A stretch of 24,140 nt of DNA from a virus (IMGVR_UViG_2713896901_000009:1-24140), one strand, 5' to 3'. Shown: positions 2,869 to 14,757, counted from the stretch's first letter. The notes: generated by a model from the sequence alone, not told the origin. Numbers and translations are program-made.

Positions 2869-3792
2869 TCAGTAGTTATGTACTGAAGGAGGCAATTCTT
2901 TATTCTTAAGTCTCATCCATGCGGAAAGATTCGTTGGTCCGTCTGGCTCATTGATATCAACATCTCGTGTGTGGTTGATTAAAACGTCTCTCGCCATTCC
3001 GATAACATACGAGAACTCATGACCGTAGTCGTAGCATCTGCCGGAATAGTTCGATTGAATTTGTTTTAATGCCGGATACAGTTCGCGGAATAATGCCTGT
3101 GAACGGTTGGCATAATCCCATAACCATACAAGGCTGTTTGCTTCTTTTGCAGAAAGCTCGTTGGTTTTCTTCTCTTGTTTTCCAATGAACTCACCTTCAA
3201 GTGGAACTCGAGCTGCAAGTGATAGTGCTTCGGTAAACTGCTCCTCACTGATTTCTTTGTACGAACATCCAAAATGGGATTTTAGTGACGACCACATGGT
3301 GATCATCGCCTTAGCCTGTTTTTCTTTTGGCAGAGACTGACCGCGACTCATGACGAGTTGTTTAATGGCTTCCTGCTGTTCAGTGGTGATTTTCCCCGGC
3401 AATGCCTTTTTAGCTTTGCGCGGGTTAATCACATGGCCTTTAGTCCAGTACTCGTAGAGCACATCGTCACACTCTTCCTGATACTGGATTACCTTGTCGC
3501 GGATTTCAGGGCGGACTTTGTTAGGACTGATGGTTTGCAGCCAGCCATTCAGTTTACGCAAAGCAAGGCAAATCATGGTCTGCACACCACCAACTGAAGG
3601 TATTGCGATTTCCACAATACCTTTAGCAAATCTTTGTTTTAACTTTGTAAACTGTGAAGCCCAATCCATACCCATGCCTTCAACGATAGGTTTCATTGGG
3701 GTATACGGTTCGCCGTTGTGATTGACGACATAAAGCTCTGCGCCGTGGAATGGCACGTTGATAGTAGATACTGCTGTTGCTATACTTTTCAT
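2869..3792 (-). CDS. ant: Antirepressor (Ant-like)
   Basis: 307 aa, ATG at 3792, directly downstream of the arc-like gene and upstream of tailspike, the P22 immI position of ant. The N-terminal region ([11 protein letters not shown]...[13 protein letters not shown]) resembles antirepressor N-terminal domains. Domain assignment is from memory. Confidence 0.65.
3758..3786 (+). promoter_or_regulatory. Candidate sigma70 promoter antisense to the ant 5' end (Psar-like)
   Basis: TTGATA (3758-3763), 17-bp spacer, TATACT (3781-3786). The predicted start near 3793 is directly opposite the ant start codon. Confidence 0.4.
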
Positions 3793-3860
3793 GTCAGTTT
3801 TTCCTCAAAATTTACTGGCGATTTAAGCCCGAGCTACTCGCAATAGCTTGGGCTTTACTC
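3793..3860 (+). ncRNA. Candidate sar-like antisense RNA covering the ant ribosome-binding site and start
   Basis: From the promoter above to a 12-bp stem-loop (AAGCCCGAGCTA / TAGCTTGGGCTT, 3825-3855) followed by TTTACTCATT. About 65-70 nt, the same size, position and orientation as P22 sar RNA. On the minus strand the hairpin has no U-tract, so arc-ant read-through is allowed. Confidence 0.4.
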
Positions 3861-4005
3861 ATTCTGGACAAACAATTCCATCCTTAGCTACTGACTCCTT
3901 TAGTCTCCTCAATACCTCATTACTGAACGACCGATCATCCTTTTTCGCGGACTGCTCCAAAGCCTTTTCCAGCCATTCTGGCATCCTTAATGTCTTAACT
4001 TTCAT
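3859..4005 (-). CDS. arc: Arc-like ribbon-helix-helix repressor (48 aa; below the ORF-track size cutoff)
   Basis: ATG at 4005 with AAGGAG 5 nt upstream, TGA at 3859-3861. Translation MKVKTLRMPEWLEKALEQSAKKDDRSFSNEVLRRLKESVAKDGIVCPE carries the Arc/Mnt RHH signature (LRMP ... RSxSNEV..RL.ES). Confidence 0.8.
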   Translation of the reverse strand: MKVKTLRMPEWLEKALEQSAKKDDRSFSNEVLRRLKESVAKDGIVCPE

Positions 4006-4023
4006 TTTTGCTCCTTTGTATGT

Positions 4024-4073
4024 GGTACGCATACATAGTATTTAGGTACGCATTGATAGTCAATAGATACCTA
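4024..4073. promoter_or_regulatory. Operator-like repeats in the arc/mnt divergent control region
   Basis: Direct repeats GGTACGCAT at 4024-4032 and 4045-4053 (21 bp apart, flanking the -10 of the arc promoter). A 31-bp imperfect dyad TAGGTA...ATTGA-TAG-TCAAT...TACCTA at 4043-4073 overlaps the -35. Confidence 0.45.
4035..4063 (-). promoter_or_regulatory. Candidate promoter for arc-ant (Pant-like)
   Basis: Minus strand TTGACT (4063-4058), 17-bp spacer, TACTAT (4040-4035), about 30 nt upstream of the arc ATG. Confidence 0.45.
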
Positions 4074-4109
4074 CATATCCTGTGGTAAAAAATTATTCAG
4101 GATGCGCCG

Positions 4110-4361
4110 ATGTCTGATCGTAAGTACAAAAACCCTCAAGTGAATCTGAGGCTTCCTGTAGAGATAAAGGAGCGTCTTATTGAACTAGCTGAGGCTAATT
4201 CTCGTTCATTAAATGCTGAGATGGTCGCAGCACTTGAAGCATGGACCGAAAAAAACAAACACATTCAAGCACTAGATCTTGCAACTATAGCATCGCGACT
4301 GATAGAGCTTGAGCATGATGTTGAGAAGTTAAAATGTATGCATGGCAATGGTGAAAAATGA
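4110..4361 (+). CDS. mnt: Mnt-like ribbon-helix-helix repressor
   Basis: 83 aa. The N-terminus PQVNLRLPVEIKERLIELAEANSRSLNAEMVAAL matches the Arc/Mnt RHH fold pattern. Divergent from arc as in P22 immI. Confidence 0.8.
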   Translation: MSDRKYKNPQVNLRLPVEIKERLIELAEANSRSLNAEMVAALEAWTEKNKHIQALDLATIASRLIELEHDVEKLKCMHGNGEK

Positions 4362-4675
4362 AACGTATCGCTATCCTATTGCTCCTGTGTCTCTCGAGCA
4401 TAGCTAACGCAGAAACAAAATCAGACGATAGCAGTTTTGATGAAATACAAGGCCTCATGATAGCTTCGAAAATGGCTGGTATGTGTGGTGCAATCAAACA
4501 AATGGCAATATTCCAAGAATCTACAAACATGCCGGGTGGGAATGAATTCTTACAGAGATTCCTTACTACAGAGCAAGCAAGGCTTGGGATGACTCCGCAG
4601 CAATTTCTTGAAGCATGTCAGAAATCAATCTCTATTTATACCACCTATTACAATATGAGCTCTGAGAAAAAATAG
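4358..4675 (+). CDS. Small secreted protein of unknown function, translationally coupled to mnt
   Basis: 105 aa. ATG overlaps the mnt stop (ATGA). Sec-type signal peptide MKRIAILLLLCLSSIANA with AxA site; mature part has two Cys. No family recognised. Confidence 0.6.
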   Translation: MKRIAILLLLCLSSIANAETKSDDSSFDEIQGLMIASKMAGMCGAIKQMAIFQESTNMPGGNEFLQRFLTTEQARLGMTPQQFLEACQKSISIYTTYYNMSSEKK

Positions 4676-4684
4676 ACTAGGATC

Positions 4685-4870
4685 TCAACAGCTTCCGCGT
4701 CCCTGAGTAATTCTGTTGCGGATTTGCTTCTTGCGGTGGTTTAGGCTGGAGAGCTTGGCTTCTGCTTCTGATATTTGCGCATCCAAATCTTTTAGTTCAA
4801 GATCTGAAAGGCGCTGGTCAAGCAGGGTTTGGTTTAACTCAATGTTGTTCAGACGTTCTTCTATAGTCAT
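4685..4870 (-). CDS. Hypothetical small coiled-coil protein
   Basis: 61 aa, ATG at 4870 with AAGGT 7 nt upstream; heptad-like Leu/Glu-rich sequence. Lies on the late-transcript strand. Weak. Confidence 0.3.
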   Translation of the reverse strand: MTIEERLNNIELNQTLLDQRLSDLELKDLDAQISEAEAKLSSLNHRKKQIRNRITQGRGSC

Positions 4871-4895
4871 ATTGTTACCTTAGTGGGAGATTAGT

Positions 4896-5120
4896 ATGAT
4901 TTCTGCTATTTTATCGGTGCTGCTAGCGTCATTATTCATCGGAGTGGTGTTGATCTCCCCGATGCCAATAATATCAATATTATTCATCTTGATGATCGGC
5001 TGGTTGTGGCTTAAAAAGGCAAGAAACGATTATTTTTTATCCATAAGAGATAAGCAATTGGAGCTTTTCCGCTTGGGGTACACTGGCGACTTGCCATTCT
5101 TAACATACCAAAAAAAGTAA
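4896..5120 (+). CDS. Small two-transmembrane-helix membrane protein
   Basis: 74 aa. GGGAGA 5 nt upstream of ATG. Two hydrophobic segments (ISAILSVLLASLFIGVVLI and IISILFILMIGWLWL), basic C-terminal tail. Followed by an intrinsic terminator. Confidence 0.55.
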   Translation: MISAILSVLLASLFIGVVLISPMPIISILFILMIGWLWLKKARNDYFLSIRDKQLELFRLGYTGDLPFLTYQKK

Positions 5121-5126
5121 TAATCA

Positions 5127-5149
5127 AGCCGGGTCACTCCGGCTTTTTG
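5127..5149 (+). terminator. Rho-independent terminator after the 74-aa membrane-protein gene
   Basis: AGCCGG-GTCACT-CCGGCT followed by TTTT, 7 nt after the stop. It overlaps the last codons of the convergent minus-strand gene. Confidence 0.6.
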
Positions 5150-5499
5150 ATATGTCGCTCGCAGAACTCAACAAGCCTGCTCATTAAGTAGCAGTAAGTC
5201 TCATTGGCTCTTCCTGGTTCAACATCAACGCCGACCCTTGAGCAGATATCGAATGCCATGTGAGCGCACTCATGGGCAATAGTAGATAGTTTGCCATTGA
5301 ACACGCCTATCACATGCAAAACACCATTCTCGCTACTCATTGTATGAGACGCTCCGTTGGCGTCCGAGTCATGCACGTCCACGCCAAGTTTTTGATGCAG
5401 GCGTTGCCATTCTGGAAAGTCTCTGCAAAACACAATTGTACCGCTCTCAAAGAGCGGAACAAGCATTTTTGGTACGTTTCCAATGTTAACTTTTTTCAT
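5134..5499 (-). CDS. HExxH-motif protein, possible small zinc metallopeptidase (ImmA/IrrE- or SprT-like)
   Basis: 121 aa. Motif KLSTIAHECAHMAFD (H-E-x-x-H), with a further Glu/Tyr cluster (ETYCY) downstream. Start is ATG at 5499 with AGGA 4 nt upstream. Family assignment is tentative. Confidence 0.45.
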   Translation of the reverse strand: MKKVNIGNVPKMLVPLFESGTIVFCRDFPEWQRLHQKLGVDVHDSDANGASHTMSSENGVLHVIGVFNGKLSTIAHECAHMAFDICSRVGVDVEPGRANETYCYLMSRLVEFCERHIKKPE

Positions 5500-5529
5500 G
5501 GTATCCTGCTCAAAACTAAGGAGGTTGGT

Positions 5530-5736
5530 GTGAAGCGATTGATTGTAGGGCTTGCTGTAGTTGCTTTTTTTATCTTCTCGGCTTCGACTGGTTACGGAGT
5601 TAGATTCTCATCATCAACAATCAACGATAAGATTGAATGCAGATACATAAGCGTTTCCGGCAAATTCTCCAGAAATTACTGGTATTCAGATAATGGAATC
5701 ATGGGTATTAGCAATTGCCCTTTATTTGACAGATAG
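5530..5736 (+). CDS. Small protein with N-terminal signal/anchor sequence
   Basis: GTG at 5530 preceded by AAGGAGG at 5-nt spacing. 68 aa with hydrophobic N-terminus KRLIVGLAVVAFFIFSASTG. The ORF-track upstream extension is antisense to the HExxH gene and looks non-coding. Confidence 0.45.
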   Translation: MKRLIVGLAVVAFFIFSASTGYGVRFSSSTINDKIECRYISVSGKFSRNYWYSDNGIMGISNCPLFDR

Positions 5737-5793
5737 CCATCCGTGGCTTTATGGAGATTAACATGGTAACAGTTGGTTGGATTATCGCGTTCC

Positions 5794-7950
5794 TTATTGC
5801 ATTTTGGGTTGGTCGTCACTGGCTGTAGTCTCTTGCTGAGATAACCATGTGATAAACCCCGTGCGAGCAATAGTTTTTGCTTCATCTGTTGATAGGGTTT
5901 TCTCCCATCTCTTAAATGCATTAGATCGCATCAGCTTCCTTTCTATTACGCGTCTCACTTCTGCTCTGTCTACTGGTGCGTTTTGCAGGCGAAATAGCAT
6001 TGATTTAAACTCAGGAGAGGACAGTAGAGCATCAGCAGCCTTTATCCTGCTTGTTTTCCCTGACATCAATGCAGCCGATATTACCCCTGAAGCACCTGCT
6101 CCCAAAAGGCCAAATGAGCTTGTAATTCCTTCCGCCGCAATAGCTTTTGAGGCTATTCCATAAATTTTTGCGAGACTACCCTTTTCTTTCAGAAAGTTAT
6201 TAACTTGCTGATCCACAAGGCTACTAGCATACTGCTTACCAGTATTGAGTCTATTCATAGCCTTAGCTGCTTGATAAATCGTATCAAGGCGCTTTGATGC
6301 ATCTGTGCCAATAGCATCACGGAGAGCCTTCATATTGGCCCCATTGCGTGACATTCCGTTATACCATTTTACAAATCCATCAACTCCTAATTGCTGACCA
6401 GGTGATTTGGCATAGCTGGTAAATGCTTTATTCATTGAGGTGAGCGCAACTTCCTGCCGCATATCCTTTGGAATCGACTTCATTAATTGCCTAAAGTCGC
6501 CACCGTTTCCTTTTGCCATATTAACAACAGCACTTTCAACTTTTGGAATTGCTGATTGCTGAAGTTTTCTACCCAAGACGGTTACAGCATCATCTTCAAT
6601 TGATTTTCGTTTTTTTACCAACTCCTTACCAAGCGTCCATAATTCCCCTGCGCCATATTTTTCTGCGACAGCCTGTTGGTCATCTGTTATGGCTGCATAT
6701 AACTTTTTAAGAACACCTGTTTCTTCATCCTTGAATGGACCAGAGCCTTTGCCAATAGCTTGTCCAACCTGCTTTCTAGCGAGATCTAAACGCCCATACG
6801 TTGGCAAGGTGTTTGGATCAAGTCGGTTCAATGTCCGCTTCATTATTGGAGATAATTCATCAATTCCACCTATGTCATCAGCAAAATCCTCTAAAAAATT
6901 CAATGTATTAGTTGCCTCAATCCGGTCTCTTACAGGAACCTTTTCGGCAATTTTGTTGTAGATGTTATCTGACTGATTTTGTAATGATGAAATGGTTTTA
7001 TCAAAATTATCTGCAAGCCTGTCAGAAACCAGTTGCTTATCAAGGTTTCCCCCAAATGAAGTTATCATTTCATCAGCTTTTCTTCCTAATTCAGTAATAA
7101 AACGCTTATGCGCCTCACTAATCTCTGTTCCAGGGAGACTTGCCACTGCATTATCAAGAGCTCTGACAGCAGGATTATTAGAGATCATGCCTGGAGTGGC
7201 ATAATTTTCCAGTTCTAGCTCACGAATAGCATTTATCGCGTTAAAATCAGGATTAACTTCATCGGCGAAATCTTGAATAGCTCGTTGCCCACCAATAAAT
7301 TTATTATCCATTGCACCAGCAGCTTTCTTTAACGTTGCTTTAGATGATTTACTGCCCATCCCTACGGATGAGCGATAAATATCTCCGGCACTATTTTTAA
7401 TTTTTCCTGCAATCTTCCCAAGCGCTGGACCAACAATCTCGGCTACAGGGCCAGCCACAGCGCCAATAGCAGCGCCGGAAGCAACATCGCTATTTGTTCC
7501 ATTGGCTACAATAGCCCCTTCTCCAGCACCAAGCCCTGCGGCGGCAGCCAGCCTTGCCGCCCCTTTCGGAACCTGAGAAATAATCCCACCACCACTAACA
7601 AATGGCGCTGCTTGTCCAACGAACTCACCAACATCTTGTGCGGTTGATGGTTTTGCCGCTAACTTCTGCTGTAGAGACTGAATTGCGGCTTGCTCTTCTG
7701 GTGTCATATCCTGAAACAGGCCAACACCTTTACCAACATCCATCAATCCACTGAGAACGCCATACATAAAACGGTCGAAACCGTTAGCATTATTAACAAC
7801 ATTTTCCTGTCTGGAATTTTCCCCTGGTGAAACCAAAGGTGATTGCTGCTGTTCTGGTTGGGCATCAAGCACAAAACCATCAGGAAGCTGTGAGTTATCA
7901 GGCTGTTCATCCAGAACAAACCCCTCTGGTAAACCTACATTGGTTGCCAT
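5794..7950 (-). CDS. Ejection (internal virion) protein, P22 gp16 position
   Basis: 718 aa, Ala/Gly-rich. Last of the three ejection-protein genes in P22 order; overlaps the gp20 stop. Confidence 0.8.
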
Positions 7951-9284
7951 TGTCCGTTCCTGTAAATAATTTTCTGACCAGTTTTAGGATTTTTCGCGGT
8001 CATACCTTCTCGAAATGTTTGACCGCCAGATGTTGCTTGTTGTGTCTGTTGTTGCGCAGGCTGCTGAATATCTTCATAAAGCTTGGCTTTTCTGGATTGC
8101 AATTGCTTAGTTAGTCCGCTGGGGAGAGAATCTCCATAAGTTGAAAGATAATCATCCATTTGCTGATTAAACTTTTCACCTTCAGTATTTGCCATCAGTT
8201 TTGCGGTGTTGATTAAGTCTTGGACTTGCTCATTATTCAACATCTTGCCGTTAGATAATTGGCTAACATAGTTACCAAGTGTGCCGAATATTCCATCAGT
8301 GCGTTTTACCTGTACTTGCTCACCTTCGCGCACCACAGATTGCGGATCCAGTGATTTCATATAGTTGAAAATCATTCCCAACTGCGCGGCTGGAGTGTTA
8401 CGCTTCCCGAGGGCTTGTAGGTTGTCAGCAGCACTGCGCATTGCAGAATAATTCTTTGAGAACCCATTAATATCACTATTCAGATCTCGAACAAGTTTTG
8501 GGTCAATCTTTCCGCTTTCCTGTTGTTTCATCCCTAATTCCTGCAACTTCAGGGCTACGTTATCATTATGCATTTGTGCCCGCTGAGCCCTGTCTAGTTG
8601 AGCGTTCTGGATATTTGCCCATCCTCTCGCATTCTCCATATCAGCCTGACGGATGCTTTCATCCAATCGCCCTTTCTCAAGTTGGCGACCAACCATCTTA
8701 TCCTGATAATCCAGCATTTTATCCGGGCCAACAGCCCCTAGCGTCATAGTAGTCAGCATGTGTGATAGCTGCTCTGGATTCTGAATACCTGTCTGAATCA
8801 TCCAGTCAGCATTAGCGCCAACGCGATTTAACCTGTCCTTGTTGTCAGTAATGAATTTACTGTAGGCTTCCGGTCCCTGAGAAAGAGCGACGTTAGCCCT
8901 CATGGCTAAATCGCCCATATCGTTGCGTTGCTGATCATTAAGACCGGAAAACGCCTGTTGTGCCTGTGCAACAAACGCTGGATTTTCCTGGGCAAACTTA
9001 AATAATCCCGATGGATCACCAGAAGCCCATGCATCAGCGTGAACCTTATTGAACGCACTAATCGCTTTCTGTTGCTGTTCCTGATTGTAAATATCAGCAA
9101 CTCCAGCCAGACCACGTAACGCGGTCAGACCAACGTTATTTGCACCTGAGCGAGCCAGTTCATTGTTTTCGCGGATCAGACCAAGCGTTGCGTTAATGTC
9201 GCTTGCCTTTGGCGCATTCTCATTTTGCGCACCAATTCCAGCCAGAAAACCACCAGAATTAATACCCTGTTGCCACGTAGCCAT
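7935..9284 (-). CDS. Ejection protein, P22 gp20-like
   Basis: 449 aa, Gln/Asn/Ala-rich. Synteny gp7-gp20-gp16. Confidence 0.8.
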
Positions 9285-13461: not shown

Positions 13462-14757
13462 TCACGCAGTCTGGTTAGGCAGACCAACACCAATTGCCTC
13501 TGGTCGTACAGCACATGCTGAATACCACACAGCAATACGGCACTTACCAGACAGAGTGTTGATATCACCCTGCGTTGCGAAGATGCCGTTAACACCAATG
13601 CCTGGAATGCTGAAGGAAGACGTTTTCATGCCAGCAAACAGTTCATGGGTTACCGGGATCGGCTGAGACAGCAGACGGATTGAGTCATCAGCCCAGAACA
13701 CGTTAGCGGTGGTTGTTGCCACGTTCAGAACGTTTACCGGAGTGGAATCAGCAAGAGAGGTGTTTACGTTAGCGTAAGCCTTCTCTTCTTTTGTCAGTGA
13801 AGAGTCATCAAGCGCAATCGGCTTCGGCGTGATTTCGATGTGAGTACCATCGATCACACGGGTGATTGAGAAAGTCGCGTCATCAGTCAGCACGTTCTTC
13901 GCCATCTGAGACAGGAATTTCACGCCAGTGAAGCTGATTTTGTCGCCGCGCTTAAATCCGGTGGTGGAGGATACGGTCACCGTTGCAACACGGTTGTCGA
14001 CGTTCTCTTTGTTACCATCGGTATCAAGAGTGTATGCCTGCGGCTTAAACTTCTGCGCACCAGAAACAGTTACACCAGTAGCGGTTGACTTGGTAACTGC
14101 CGGAAGTTTCGGTGAGCGAAGAATTTCATCAAAGCCAGCAATCTGACGCTGAATAGTACCGTTGCGATACGCTTCTTCAGGAACGCGCCCGAAGATGTCA
14201 CCATCTACCAGGTTGCGGCCTGCTTTGCGGTAATCGTCAGGGTTCAGGAAGTAACTGATGCCCATATCGCGGTTTAGCTCACGGGAGAACATCAGGCGCT
14301 CTGCATCAGACACAAAATCCCAGCCAGACAGGCCAGTAGATGGACCAATTGCTCGGGTATCGTGAACAACAAGTGAGCCCATTTCAGTTGCCTGTTTGGC
14401 AATTGCTGACTCAATGTTATTCGCCAGTTTTTTAGCGGATGCCTGGATGCGGCGACGGTAAGAACGCTCATCACGCAGGTCATCTGCACGAAGCTCGAAG
14501 AAATCGTTATCCGGATCGCCCATGTTGCATTTCACGGACAGTTCCAGAATACCGGTAGCGTTGCCAGTTAAATCCCAGCCAGTCTGAGTTGGCGCTTCCT
14601 GCTCAACAGGCATCCACACGGTGTTGCTTGAACGTTGCATGGATTCTGCCGGAGGGGTGTATTTTGTCACTTTAGACGCCATTGGCGTCAGGTTCTGGAC
14701 GGTTTCGATGATTTCATCCAGAGCATACGTGACCAGTTGACCTTCATTTAATGCCAT
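13462..14757 (-). CDS. Major coat protein, P22 gp5-like
   Basis: 431 aa; N-terminus [19 protein letters not shown] and overall sequence closely match P22 coat as recalled. Stop/start overlap with scaffold gene. Confidence 0.9.

What the first reader, a model, noticed from the sequence alone, without database searches (positions are those of the whole stretch)
5134..5499. Short HExxH protein, a possible minimal metallopeptidase next to the immunity module
The 121-aa protein carries a single HExxH motif (TIAHECAHMAF) with a Glu/Tyr cluster about 20 residues downstream, the spacing used by small zinc peptidases such as ImmA/IrrE (M78) or SprT. Proteases of that type cleave repressors in other mobile elements, and this one lies about 600 bp from the Mnt/Arc-type repressors. 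It is shorter than typical family members, so this is pattern-level only.
Basis: inference. Interest (0 to 1): 0.55.

Follow-up and report, generated by a model that had tools for sequence, protein, structure and literature searches.

The report
Phage P22 hkcC: small zinc-protease-like gene
The flagged ORF is hkcC, a real gene of unknown function in P22-type phages, which most likely encodes a very small zinc-dependent protease of a phage-wide family that no domain database lists; nothing shows that it cuts the neighbouring Mnt/Arc repressors.

Summary
Window 5134-5499 (minus strand) encodes a 121-aa protein with H76-E77-C-A-H80 and N99-E100, the Glu exactly 20 residues after the second His.

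The gene is hkcC of phage HK620 (99% identical). It is intact in P22 but missing from the P22 reference annotation, and the literature lists its function as unknown. It is under strong purifying selection: 27 of 30 variable sites fall at codon position 3.

It belongs to a large phage family: 546 cluster representatives, median length about 122 aa. H76, E77, H80 and E100 are invariant in 83 diverse members.

The proposed link to Mnt/Arc is only contextual. hkcC-type genes are nearly always paired with a convergent 59-aa gene (orf59a) and often sit beside repressor/antirepressor modules. However, 12 of 76 related loci have no mnt, arc or ant, and more distant relatives lie in unrelated places. 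The substrate is unknown.

Verdict: a probable new family of minimal metallopeptidases, of moderate interest.

The parts
5134..5499 (-). hkcC coding sequence: 121 aa, 13.6 kDa, pI 6.4, stop codon included, no signal-peptide-like N-terminus on reading the sequence
   Evidence: ORF list. 99.2% identical to HK620 HkcC and to the unannotated P22 ORF. PHROG 1365, E 1.7e-39. Purifying selection. Mass and pI.
5260..5274 (-). Codons for H76-E77-C78-A79-H80. Inferred roles: two zinc ligands and the catalytic base, on predicted helix 71-88.
   Evidence: Sequence read directly. H76, E77 and H80 invariant in 83 diverse relatives. Helix from the AF2 models.
5200..5205 (-). Codons for N99-E100. E100 is the inferred third zinc ligand, at the first turn of predicted helix 100-117 and 20 residues after H80.
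   Evidence: E100 invariant. Spacing of 19-20 residues in 101 of 145 representatives. phmmer aligns it with the NE of the third-ligand Glu in thermolysin and neutral protease, at non-significant E 0.09-0.66.
5188..5190 (-). Codon for Y104, one helical turn after E100. Inferred helper residue for catalysis.
   Evidence: Nearly invariant (at least 90%) in 83 diverse relatives. The role is inference only.
5126..5145 (.). GC-rich hairpin that overlaps the hkcC stop codon. It corresponds to P22 t-mnt and to HK620 'bidirectional terminator tORF59A'.
   Evidence: Terminator scan finds it on both strands. Annotated in P22-pbi and HK620 at the homologous position.
5504..5507 (-). AGGA Shine-Dalgarno-like element, 4 nt upstream of the hkcC ATG
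   Evidence: Read from the sequence. A weak signal; inference.
5469..5499 (+). Homologue of the P22 sieA promoter. It lies inside the first codons of hkcC on the opposite strand and points at the gene in the sieA slot (here 5530-5736).
   Evidence: Ungapped homology at 97.6% places window 5112-5532 on P22-pbi 13828-14248, where the PsieA promoter is annotated at 13861-13891.
5112..5532 (.). The mosaic module that carries hkcC: terminator, coding sequence and about 30 bp upstream. Its flanks are swapped between phages.
   Evidence: In 70 of 80 related loci, homology to the window ends at about 5110; in 79 of 80 it ends at 5520-5550. The same block matches P22 and 283 of 5426 complete E. coli genomes.

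Best explanation
The ORF is hkcC, an accessory gene of the 'ant moron', the variable region between ejection-protein gene 16 and the tailspike gene in P22-like phages.

It encodes a cytoplasmic, single-domain, zinc-dependent hydrolase of the minimal gluzincin type, most likely an endopeptidase. In this model H76 and H80 on the active-site helix and E100 at the start of the next helix hold one zinc ion. E77 activates the water. Y104 may stabilise the transition state. A peptide substrate would lie against the edge of the four-stranded sheet (strands 49-56 and 59-66), as in other zincins.

The gene points the same way as the late operon and has no conserved promoter of its own. It is therefore most likely transcribed by antiterminated read-through from gene 16, ending or pausing at the hairpin at 5126-5145.

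It is dispensable for making virions and acts on one or a few specific proteins. The target is unknown. The best contextual candidates are the product of its usual convergent partner gene orf59a (a YjzC-like protein, absent from this window), a component of the neighbouring repressor/antirepressor module, or a host protein.

Shown: the gene is real, the four residues are invariant, the fold prediction is confident, and the genomic associations hold. Inferred: metal binding, catalysis, expression timing and target.
For: Real, selected gene.

Identity with HK620 hkcC and with the unannotated P22 ORF. Function listed as unknown: PMC2629481 and PMC4837284.

Large family of stand-alone proteins of about 120 aa: 546 representatives at E<=1e-3, 151 at E<=1e-10. 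Median length is 122 aa, and 130 of 145 are 140 aa or shorter.

Invariant residues: H76, E77, H80 and E100 are the only invariant columns in 83 diverse members, with P15, G49 and Y104 nearly invariant. An invariant E77 argues for catalysis rather than metal binding alone.

Structure prediction: AF2 gives pLDDT 89.1 with 18 sequences and 93.7 (pTM 0.87) with 83 sequences, with the same topology both times: strands 11-13 and 21-25, helix 28-37, strands 49-56 and 59-66, helix 71-88, helix 100-117.

Sequence neighbours: the best PDB sequence hits are thermolysin/neutral protease (E 0.09-0.66), which align HExxH, the NE of the third ligand and a shared LVEF. A family profile gives myroilysin at E 0.026.

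Expression: no promoter-like site was found on the minus strand between gene 16 and hkcC. Homology between phages ends about 30 bp upstream of the ATG. [quoted passage not shown]

Accessory nature: the flanks vary and the moron is entirely absent from some P22-like phages.

Against: I could not read the model coordinates, so I did not check whether H76, H80 and E100 converge on one point. All PDB sequence hits are above significance.

No experiment on hkcC was found in the searchable literature. Expression by late read-through is inferred, not measured. Four of 145 representatives lack HExxH; two of those are fragments.
Confidence: 0.6

Rival explanations
1. One reading: HkcC is an ImmA/IrrE-type (M78) anti-repressor protease that cleaves the neighbouring ribbon-helix-helix repressors Mnt and/or Arc, or Ant, and so acts on immunity region I.

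For: hkcC-type genes recur beside RHH repressor and antirepressor genes:
- 64 of 76 P22-like loci have mnt, with or without arc and ant.
- Proteus penneri has an Arc-domain gene (E 8e-15) followed by two Bro-N genes.
- Xenorhabdus has a KilA-N/P63C gene.
- 23 of 40 divergent viral loci have an RHH and/or antirepressor-like gene within 4 kb.
Against: There is no Peptidase_M78 hit for the window protein, and only 1 of 83 relatives has one, at E 0.099.

hkcC is convergent to mnt, separated from it by three ORFs and a terminator, and not in an operon with any repressor.

12 of 76 loci lack mnt, arc and ant. HK620 keeps hkcC with only remnants of them.

The orf129-type relatives (38-40% identity) and those in lytic phages have no such neighbours.

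From my own knowledge of the P22 literature, control of immunity region I is explained by Mnt, Arc and the sar RNA without any protease. The association can also be explained by genes travelling together in one mobile moron.
Confidence: 0.07
2. HkcC and the 59-aa YjzC-like protein Orf59a form a functional pair, either protease and substrate or protease and inhibitor. One is made from the prophage (the mnt-orf59a operon) and the other late in lytic growth, so that HkcC removes or is restrained by Orf59a at the switch between the two states.
For: The convergent pair, sharing one terminator hairpin, is found in:
- 66 of 76 P22-like loci;
- 39 of 40 divergent viral loci at 52-66% HkcC identity;
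- Klebsiella oxytoca, Rosenbergiella, Xenorhabdus, Proteus and a Pasteurellaceae genome, in at least three different genome contexts.

Close orf59a homologues in the phage collection lie in the same P22-like records as hkcC.
Against: In this window orf59a is replaced by an unrelated 74-aa membrane ORF, as in 10 of 76 loci, so HkcC is kept without it.

All other subfamilies lack orf59a. YjzC-like genes in Gram-positive phages have no HExxH neighbour.

The linkage could simply reflect a two-gene moron bounded by one terminator. No interaction was tested.
Confidence: 0.15
3. HkcC is a counter-defence or host-takeover protease that cleaves a host protein, for example a defence or stress factor.
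For: Relatives sit in accessory-gene slots between the lysis and terminase genes, directly next to Tad2-like or Acb2/Tad1-hairpin genes in Klebsiella prophages.

One relative heads a block of small unnamed ORFs in an N4-like phage, and another lies among DNA-metabolism genes in an Autographiviridae phage.

The family is almost entirely phage-borne: 8 plasmid records and no PADLOC defence hit.
Against: Anti-defence neighbours are a small minority. The common neighbours are DUF2560, Dec, the small terminase subunit and spanins.

Late expression in P22-like phages is not the usual timing for counter-defence. No target is known.
Confidence: 0.2
4. HkcC is a SprT/Wss1/Spartan-like DNA-dependent protease that removes proteins bound or cross-linked to DNA.
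For: 21 of 83 family members give weak Pfam SprT-like hits, the best at E 1e-4. Some viral structural neighbours and one database name read 'SprT-like'. Wss1 and Spartan have been described as belonging to the minigluzincins (PMC4559962 abstract).
Against: All hits fall below the gathering score; the two hits inspected cover only the HExxH helix.

The third ligand here is a Glu at +20. There is no C-terminal zinc ribbon or basic tail, and the protein is mildly acidic (pI 6.4).
Confidence: 0.07
5. The protein is not an enzyme. It is a zinc-stabilised binding protein, or the ORF is conserved only because it overlaps a promoter and a terminator.
For: The ORF overlaps the PsieA promoter and the t-mnt hairpin. 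There is no biochemical evidence either way.
Against: Variation is concentrated at codon position 3, and the family extends to about 25% identity across unrelated phages that lack these regulatory elements. The invariance of the catalytic E77 is hard to explain for a purely structural metal site.
Confidence: 0.08

Closest known systems
HkcC of coliphage HK620 (AAK28904), the unannotated P22 ORF, and PHROG 1365
   Same: 99.2% amino-acid identity over all 121 residues. Same position after gene 16 and before the bidirectional terminator. PHROG 1365 at E 1.7e-39.
   Different: Nothing material; this is the same gene. Its function is recorded as unknown. Here the flanking genes differ: a YobH-like ORF replaces hkcB/sieA, and a 74-aa membrane ORF replaces orf59a/hkcD.
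Orf129 of phages ST64T and L; gene 70 of epsilon34; gene 66 of g341c
   Same: 38-40% identity over the full length, with the same HECAH and NETYCY motifs.
   Different: They lie between the lysis genes and dec or the terminase gene, not in the ant moron, and are never paired with orf59a. Some phage records have two matching places.
Minigluzincins (proabylysin, projannalysin) and other minimal zincins such as the 114-aa Zincin_1 protein in PDB 3e11
Thermolysin and Bacillus neutral protease (M4 gluzincins)
   Same: HExxH, with Glu 20 residues after the second His in an NE context, then LVEF. phmmer aligns residues 48-115 with 117-182 of neutral protease.
   Different: E-values are 0.09-0.66, which is not significant. 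M4 enzymes are secreted proteins of about 316 aa with a large C-terminal domain, which supplies further catalytic residues (from my own knowledge). HkcC is 121 aa and appears cytoplasmic.
ImmA/IrrE/CapP (Peptidase M78) repressor-cleaving proteases
   Different: No PF06114 match. Not in an operon with a helix-turn-helix repressor. No sensor domain.
SprT-like, Wss1 and Spartan
   Same: Weak recurrent similarity over the HExxH helix in 21 of 83 relatives. Some viral structural neighbours carry this name.
   Different: Below the family threshold; the two hits inspected are confined to about 30 residues. The third ligand is Glu rather than His, and there is no zinc ribbon or DNA-binding part. The features of SprT are from my own knowledge.

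Membership tests
HkcC / PHROG 1365 | Full-length sequence match to the family profile and to named members | tested here: met
   PHROG 1365, E 1.7e-39, residues 1-121 on profile positions 3-120 of 127. 99.2% identity to HK620 hkcC.
Gluzincins (zincins with a Glu third ligand), minimal form | HExxH on a helix | tested here: met
   H76-E77-x-x-H80 lies within predicted helix 71-88 and is invariant in 83 relatives.
Gluzincins (zincins with a Glu third ligand), minimal form | A conserved Glu on the next helix, about 18-30 residues downstream, as third zinc ligand | tested here: met
   E100 is invariant, lies at the first turn of helix 100-117 and is 20 residues after H80. Spacing is 19-20 residues in 101 of 145 representatives. 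Its role as a ligand is inferred.
Gluzincins (zincins with a Glu third ligand), minimal form | Zincin fold, shown by structural similarity to solved members | tested here: inconclusive
Gluzincins (zincins with a Glu third ligand), minimal form | The three ligands converge on one metal site; zinc-dependent peptide hydrolysis | not testable with these tools
Peptidase M78 (ImmA/IrrE) | Match to PF06114 at or above the gathering score | tested here: not met
   No hit for the window protein at E<=10. 1 of 83 relatives matches, at E 0.099.
Peptidase M78 (ImmA/IrrE) | Gene adjacent to, and co-transcribed with, its cognate repressor gene | tested here: not met
   hkcC is convergent to mnt and 773 bp away, across three ORFs and a terminator. 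12 of 76 loci have no mnt, arc or ant.
SprT-like (PF10263) / Wss1 / Spartan | Match to PF10263 at or above 25.6 bits | tested here: not met
   No hit for the window protein. 21 of 83 relatives match below threshold (best E 1e-4); the two hits inspected cover profile positions 63-96 of 108 only.
SprT-like (PF10263) / Wss1 / Spartan | A zinc-ribbon or DNA-binding part and a His third ligand | tested here: not met
   The protein ends 21 residues after E100, with no CxxC pairs after the catalytic helices. pI is 6.4. The definition of the feature is from my own knowledge.
Known anti-phage defence components (PADLOC) | Match to any PADLOC model | tested here: not met
   No hit at E<=0.1 for HkcC or for two relatives.

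The most novel reading that the evidence does not exclude
HkcC and Orf59a form a previously unrecognised protease-and-partner cassette that belongs functionally to antirepressor (immunity I-type) morons. On this reading the late-expressed minimal metalloprotease cleaves a prophage-expressed component (Orf59a, an RHH repressor or the antirepressor) or its host partner. That would add a proteolytic layer to the lysogeny/lysis circuitry of P22-like and other temperate phages.
Probability: 0.15. Interest if true: 0.7.

Novelty: new variant of a known kind. Interest (0 to 1): 0.45.

Why it matters
P22 is one of the most thoroughly studied phages, yet this gene is missing from its reference annotation and has no assigned function.

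The evidence here makes it the type member of a large phage-borne family of roughly 120-aa proteins with an invariant gluzincin signature that Pfam and NCBIfam do not cover. That gives a concrete and cheap hypothesis to test in a tractable system: zinc binding, an E77A mutant, and cleavage of Orf59a, Mnt, Arc, Ant or host proteins.

It would also give an annotation to hundreds of 'hypothetical proteins' in prophages; the module is present in 283 of 5426 complete E. coli genomes. If the substrate turns out to be a component of the immunity module or a host defence protein, it would reveal a new regulatory or counter-defence mechanism.

Tried and rejected
Searches that found nothing useful:
- Pfam, NCBIfam and PADLOC scans of the protein gave no meaningful hit. 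The only Pfam and NCBIfam hits are chance lantibiotic matches at E 0.14 and 0.026.
- A profile of close relatives against PDB sequences found nothing. The broader profile gave only sub-significant zincin hits.
- Foldseek against the PDB found nothing at E<=0.001.
- The afdb50 fold library was unavailable.
- An Rfam scan of 3500-6000 found nothing.
- The broad alignment was too diverse to seed a locus search, so subfamily alignments and single proteins were used instead.
- Longer family members of 173-285 aa were scanned for informative fused domains. None was found.
- Literature searches for hkcC, orf129, YjzC and phage metalloprotease counter-defence found no functional study.
- The plasmid collection gave only 8 records, so the family is not a plasmid leading-region gene.

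Ideas rejected:
- The neighbouring PF18894 'phage metallopeptidase' as a paralogue: hhalign probability is 3%, with similarity confined to HExxH.
- 'GNAT acetyltransferase', the label in record KR296688: nothing supports it.
- The overlapping plus-strand ORF 5314-5736 as the real gene over 5314-5529: the substitution pattern and stop codons in some alleles rule it out.
- A link between YjzC-like genes and HExxH neighbours in Gram-positive phages: none was found.

Full report
**What is there.** Window 5134-5499 holds a 121-aa ORF on the minus strand. It reads MKKVNIGNVPKML...TIAHECAHMAF...GRANETYCYL...KKPE. HExxH is H76-E77-C78-A79-H80 (codons 5260-5274). N99-E100 (5200-5205) follows, with E100 exactly 20 residues after H80. 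The strand was not given. The distance to the repressors is about 770 bp to mnt (4110-4361, plus strand) and about 1.1 kb to arc (3859-4032, minus strand), not 600 bp.

The window is a P22-like phage or prophage with its late operon on the minus strand:
- gene 20-like, 7935-9284
- gene 16-like, 5794-7950
- the variable 'ant moron'
- ant, 2869-3792
- a tailspike-like gene, 666-2690

**Is it a gene, and more than chance?** A lone HExxH is weak evidence. It turns up in 2.5% of shuffles of this protein, and HExxH-x19-E in 0.14%. Conservation settles the matter.

Eighty near-identical loci from viral contigs carry 38 distinct alleles but only 5 protein variants. Of 30 variable sites, 27 are at codon position 3. 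Twenty-five variable codons are synonymous-only and 4 change the amino acid. Over the same bases, the overlapping plus-strand frame shows 1 synonymous-only against 15 aa-changing codons, and it contains stop codons in 3 alleles. Against homologues at about 60% and 38% identity, the non-synonymous difference (pN 0.25-0.44) is far below the synonymous one (pS 0.79-0.89).

**Identity.** The protein is 99.2% identical to HkcC of coliphage HK620, annotated 'unknown'. P22 itself has the ORF intact, with one substitution (H43Q), between orf59a and sieA. The P22 reference records (BK000583, NC_002371, AF527608) annotate only the sieA promoter and the mnt terminator there. One record calls the ORF a GNAT acetyltransferase, with no support.

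Villafane et al. 2008 list hkcC and 59a as P22 genes of unknown function in the ant moron (PMC2629481). Another paper tabulates hkcC as 'Unknown' (PMC4837284). The protein falls in PHROG 1365, function unknown. The 421-bp module 5112-5532 occurs in 283 of 5426 complete E. coli genomes, where it is always labelled hypothetical.

**Family.** A profile search of 1.84 billion cluster representatives found 546 proteins at E<=1e-3 and 151 at E<=1e-10. Nearly all are stand-alone proteins with a median length of 122 aa.

In an alignment of 83 diverse members (14% mean column identity), the only invariant columns are H76, E77, H80 and E100. P15, G49 and Y104 are nearly invariant. Of 145 representatives, 141 have HExxH, and the Glu lies 19-20 residues after the second His in 101 of them. 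The invariance of E77, the catalytic base in zincins, argues for an enzyme rather than a structural metal site.

None of the relatives carries a precomputed Pfam domain. Structural relatives occur in phages of Pseudomonas, Ralstonia, Erwinia, Achromobacter, Serratia, Acinetobacter and Eggerthella, and in crAss-like viruses.

**Fold.** AlphaFold2 gives a confident model: pLDDT 89.1 with 18 sequences, and 93.7 (pTM 0.87) with 83 sequences. The topology is identical in both runs:
- strands 11-13 and 21-25
- helix 28-37
- strands 49-56 and 59-66
- helix 71-88, which carries HExxH
- helix 100-117, which starts with E100

This is the order of elements of a minimal gluzincin: sheet, backing helix, active-site helix, glutamate helix.

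By sequence, the best PDB hits are neutral protease and thermolysin at E 0.09-0.66. They align HExxH, the NE of the third ligand and a shared LVEF. A family profile gives myroilysin at E 0.026. I could not read the model coordinates, so the geometry of the presumed metal site remains untested.

**Membership of known families.** Pfam and NCBIfam give nothing for the protein. Among the 83 relatives, the only recurrent Pfam signal is SprT-like, in 21 members (best E 1e-4). All of these hits are below the gathering score; the two hits inspected cover only about 30 residues around HExxH. Peptidase_M78 is touched once, at E 0.099. PADLOC gives nothing.

The protein therefore resembles a minimal gluzincin, but it is not a member of M78/ImmA-IrrE, SprT/WLM or M4 by the tests available here.

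**Expression, by inference.** hkcC points the same way as genes 20 and 16. The scan found no promoter-like site on the minus strand between gene 16 and hkcC. Homology among phages stops about 30 bp upstream of the ATG, so there is no conserved dedicated promoter. [quoted passage not shown] The hairpin at 5126-5145 overlaps the stop codon and corresponds to the 'bidirectional terminator' of HK620 and to t-mnt of P22.

The first codons of hkcC also carry, on the other strand, the homologue of the P22 sieA promoter (5469-5499). Here that promoter faces a 68-aa YobH-like ORF (5530-5736) instead of sieA.

**Context and the Mnt/Arc idea.** hkcC is a sharply bounded mosaic unit. Of 76 near-identical loci with at least 3 kb of downstream sequence:
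- 27 have mnt, arc and ant
- 36 have mnt and arc only
- 1 has mnt and ant
- 12 have none of the three

HK620 retains hkcC with only remnants of mnt and ant.

The 38-40% relatives (Orf129 of ST64T and L, and homologues in Klebsiella and other prophages) sit between the lysis genes and dec or the terminase gene. Their neighbours include DUF2560, Dec, small terminase subunits, PF18894 and occasionally Tad2-like or Acb2/Tad1 genes. Lytic N4-like and Autographiviridae phages carry more distant members. The enzyme family as a whole is therefore not tied to repressors.

Within the hkcC-type subfamily, however, two associations are strong.

1. A convergent 59-aa gene, orf59a (YjzC-like, Pfam E 0.006), lies immediately downstream. 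This holds in 66 of 76 P22-like loci, in 39 of 40 divergent viral loci (52-66% HkcC identity), and in K. oxytoca, Rosenbergiella, Xenorhabdus, Proteus and a Pasteurellaceae genome. These cover at least three different genome contexts.
2. RHH repressor and/or antirepressor-like genes (Arc domain, KilA-N, Bro-N, Ant) lie within 4 kb in 23 of those 40 loci, and also in Proteus and Xenorhabdus.

In this window orf59a is replaced by a 74-aa membrane ORF, as in 10 of 76 loci. These associations may reflect shared function, or only shared carriage in one moron.

**Conclusion.** The most likely reading (about 0.6) is a late-transcribed, accessory, cytoplasmic zinc metallohydrolase of a new minimal gluzincin-like family whose substrate is unknown.

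Candidate targets, in my order of preference:
- a host protein (about 0.2)
- Orf59a (about 0.15)
- DNA-bound proteins, in the manner of SprT (about 0.07)
- Mnt, Arc or Ant (about 0.07)

The gene itself is already known by name, so the novelty lies in the family-level assignment and the conserved cassette. Interest is moderate: not surprising in kind, but directly testable in a classic model phage.

Noticed in passing
window 5530-5736 (+): The slot that holds the superinfection-exclusion gene sieA in P22 (hkcB in HK620) is occupied here by a GTG-start 68-aa ORF with a strong Shine-Dalgarno sequence (AAGGAGG). It matches the YobH-like family (PF13996, E 2.5e-8). It is presumably driven by the conserved PsieA-type promoter at 5469-5499.
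   Followed up: partly
window 4358-4675 (+): A 105-aa ORF with a signal-peptide-like N-terminus overlaps the mnt stop codon (ATGA), which suggests translational coupling with the prophage-expressed repressor. It has no Pfam or PADLOC family.
   Followed up: partly
window 4685-4870 (-) and 4896-5120 (+): Two ORFs fill the place of orf59a: a 61-aa ORF with a coiled-coil-like sequence and a 74-aa ORF with hydrophobic, membrane-like stretches. The 74-aa ORF replaces orf59a in 10 of 76 related loci. A promoter-like site (4872-4900) precedes it.
   Followed up: partly
L001 (P22-pbi) 3023-3388; records BK000583, NC_002371, KR296688: The P22 reference annotations omit hkcC entirely. One P22-like record labels it 'GNAT family acetyltransferase'. 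Some records annotate sieA as a 236-aa ORF that runs antisense through hkcC; the substitution pattern argues against that extension.
   Followed up: yes
L003, L005, L177-L179, L190-L232: The convergent hkcC-orf59a pair, sharing one terminator hairpin, moves as a unit. It appears in P22-like ant morons, near tape-measure genes in K. oxytoca, Rosenbergiella and Xenorhabdus prophages, and next to a lambda P-like replication gene in a Pasteurellaceae prophage. Orf59a is more conserved (about 80%) than HkcC (about 60%) across these loci.
   Followed up: yes
L100, L104, L180 and 8 further loci (gene directly downstream of the orf129-type homologue): A 212-aa PF18894 'putative phage metallopeptidase' with its own HELYH motif directly follows the HkcC relative in 11 of 80 loci. 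Profile comparison shows no relationship beyond HExxH.
   Followed up: partly
L008 4665-4940 and L010 4619-4900: In Klebsiella lambdoid prophages the gene immediately upstream of the HkcC relative is a Tad2-like (PF11195) or Acb2/Tad1-hairpin (PF24729) gene, both known anti-defence sponge families. This marks the lysis-terminase gap as an accessory or counter-defence slot.
   Followed up: partly
PDB chains 11fw_A, 11go_A, 11gp_A, 9pnr_A (virion RNA polymerases), residues about 1182-1228 (11fw_A) and 2188-2235 (the others): The family profile weakly matches (E about 1) a strand-plus-HELVH segment inside giant virion-packaged RNA polymerases. This hints at a zincin-like module there.
   Followed up: no
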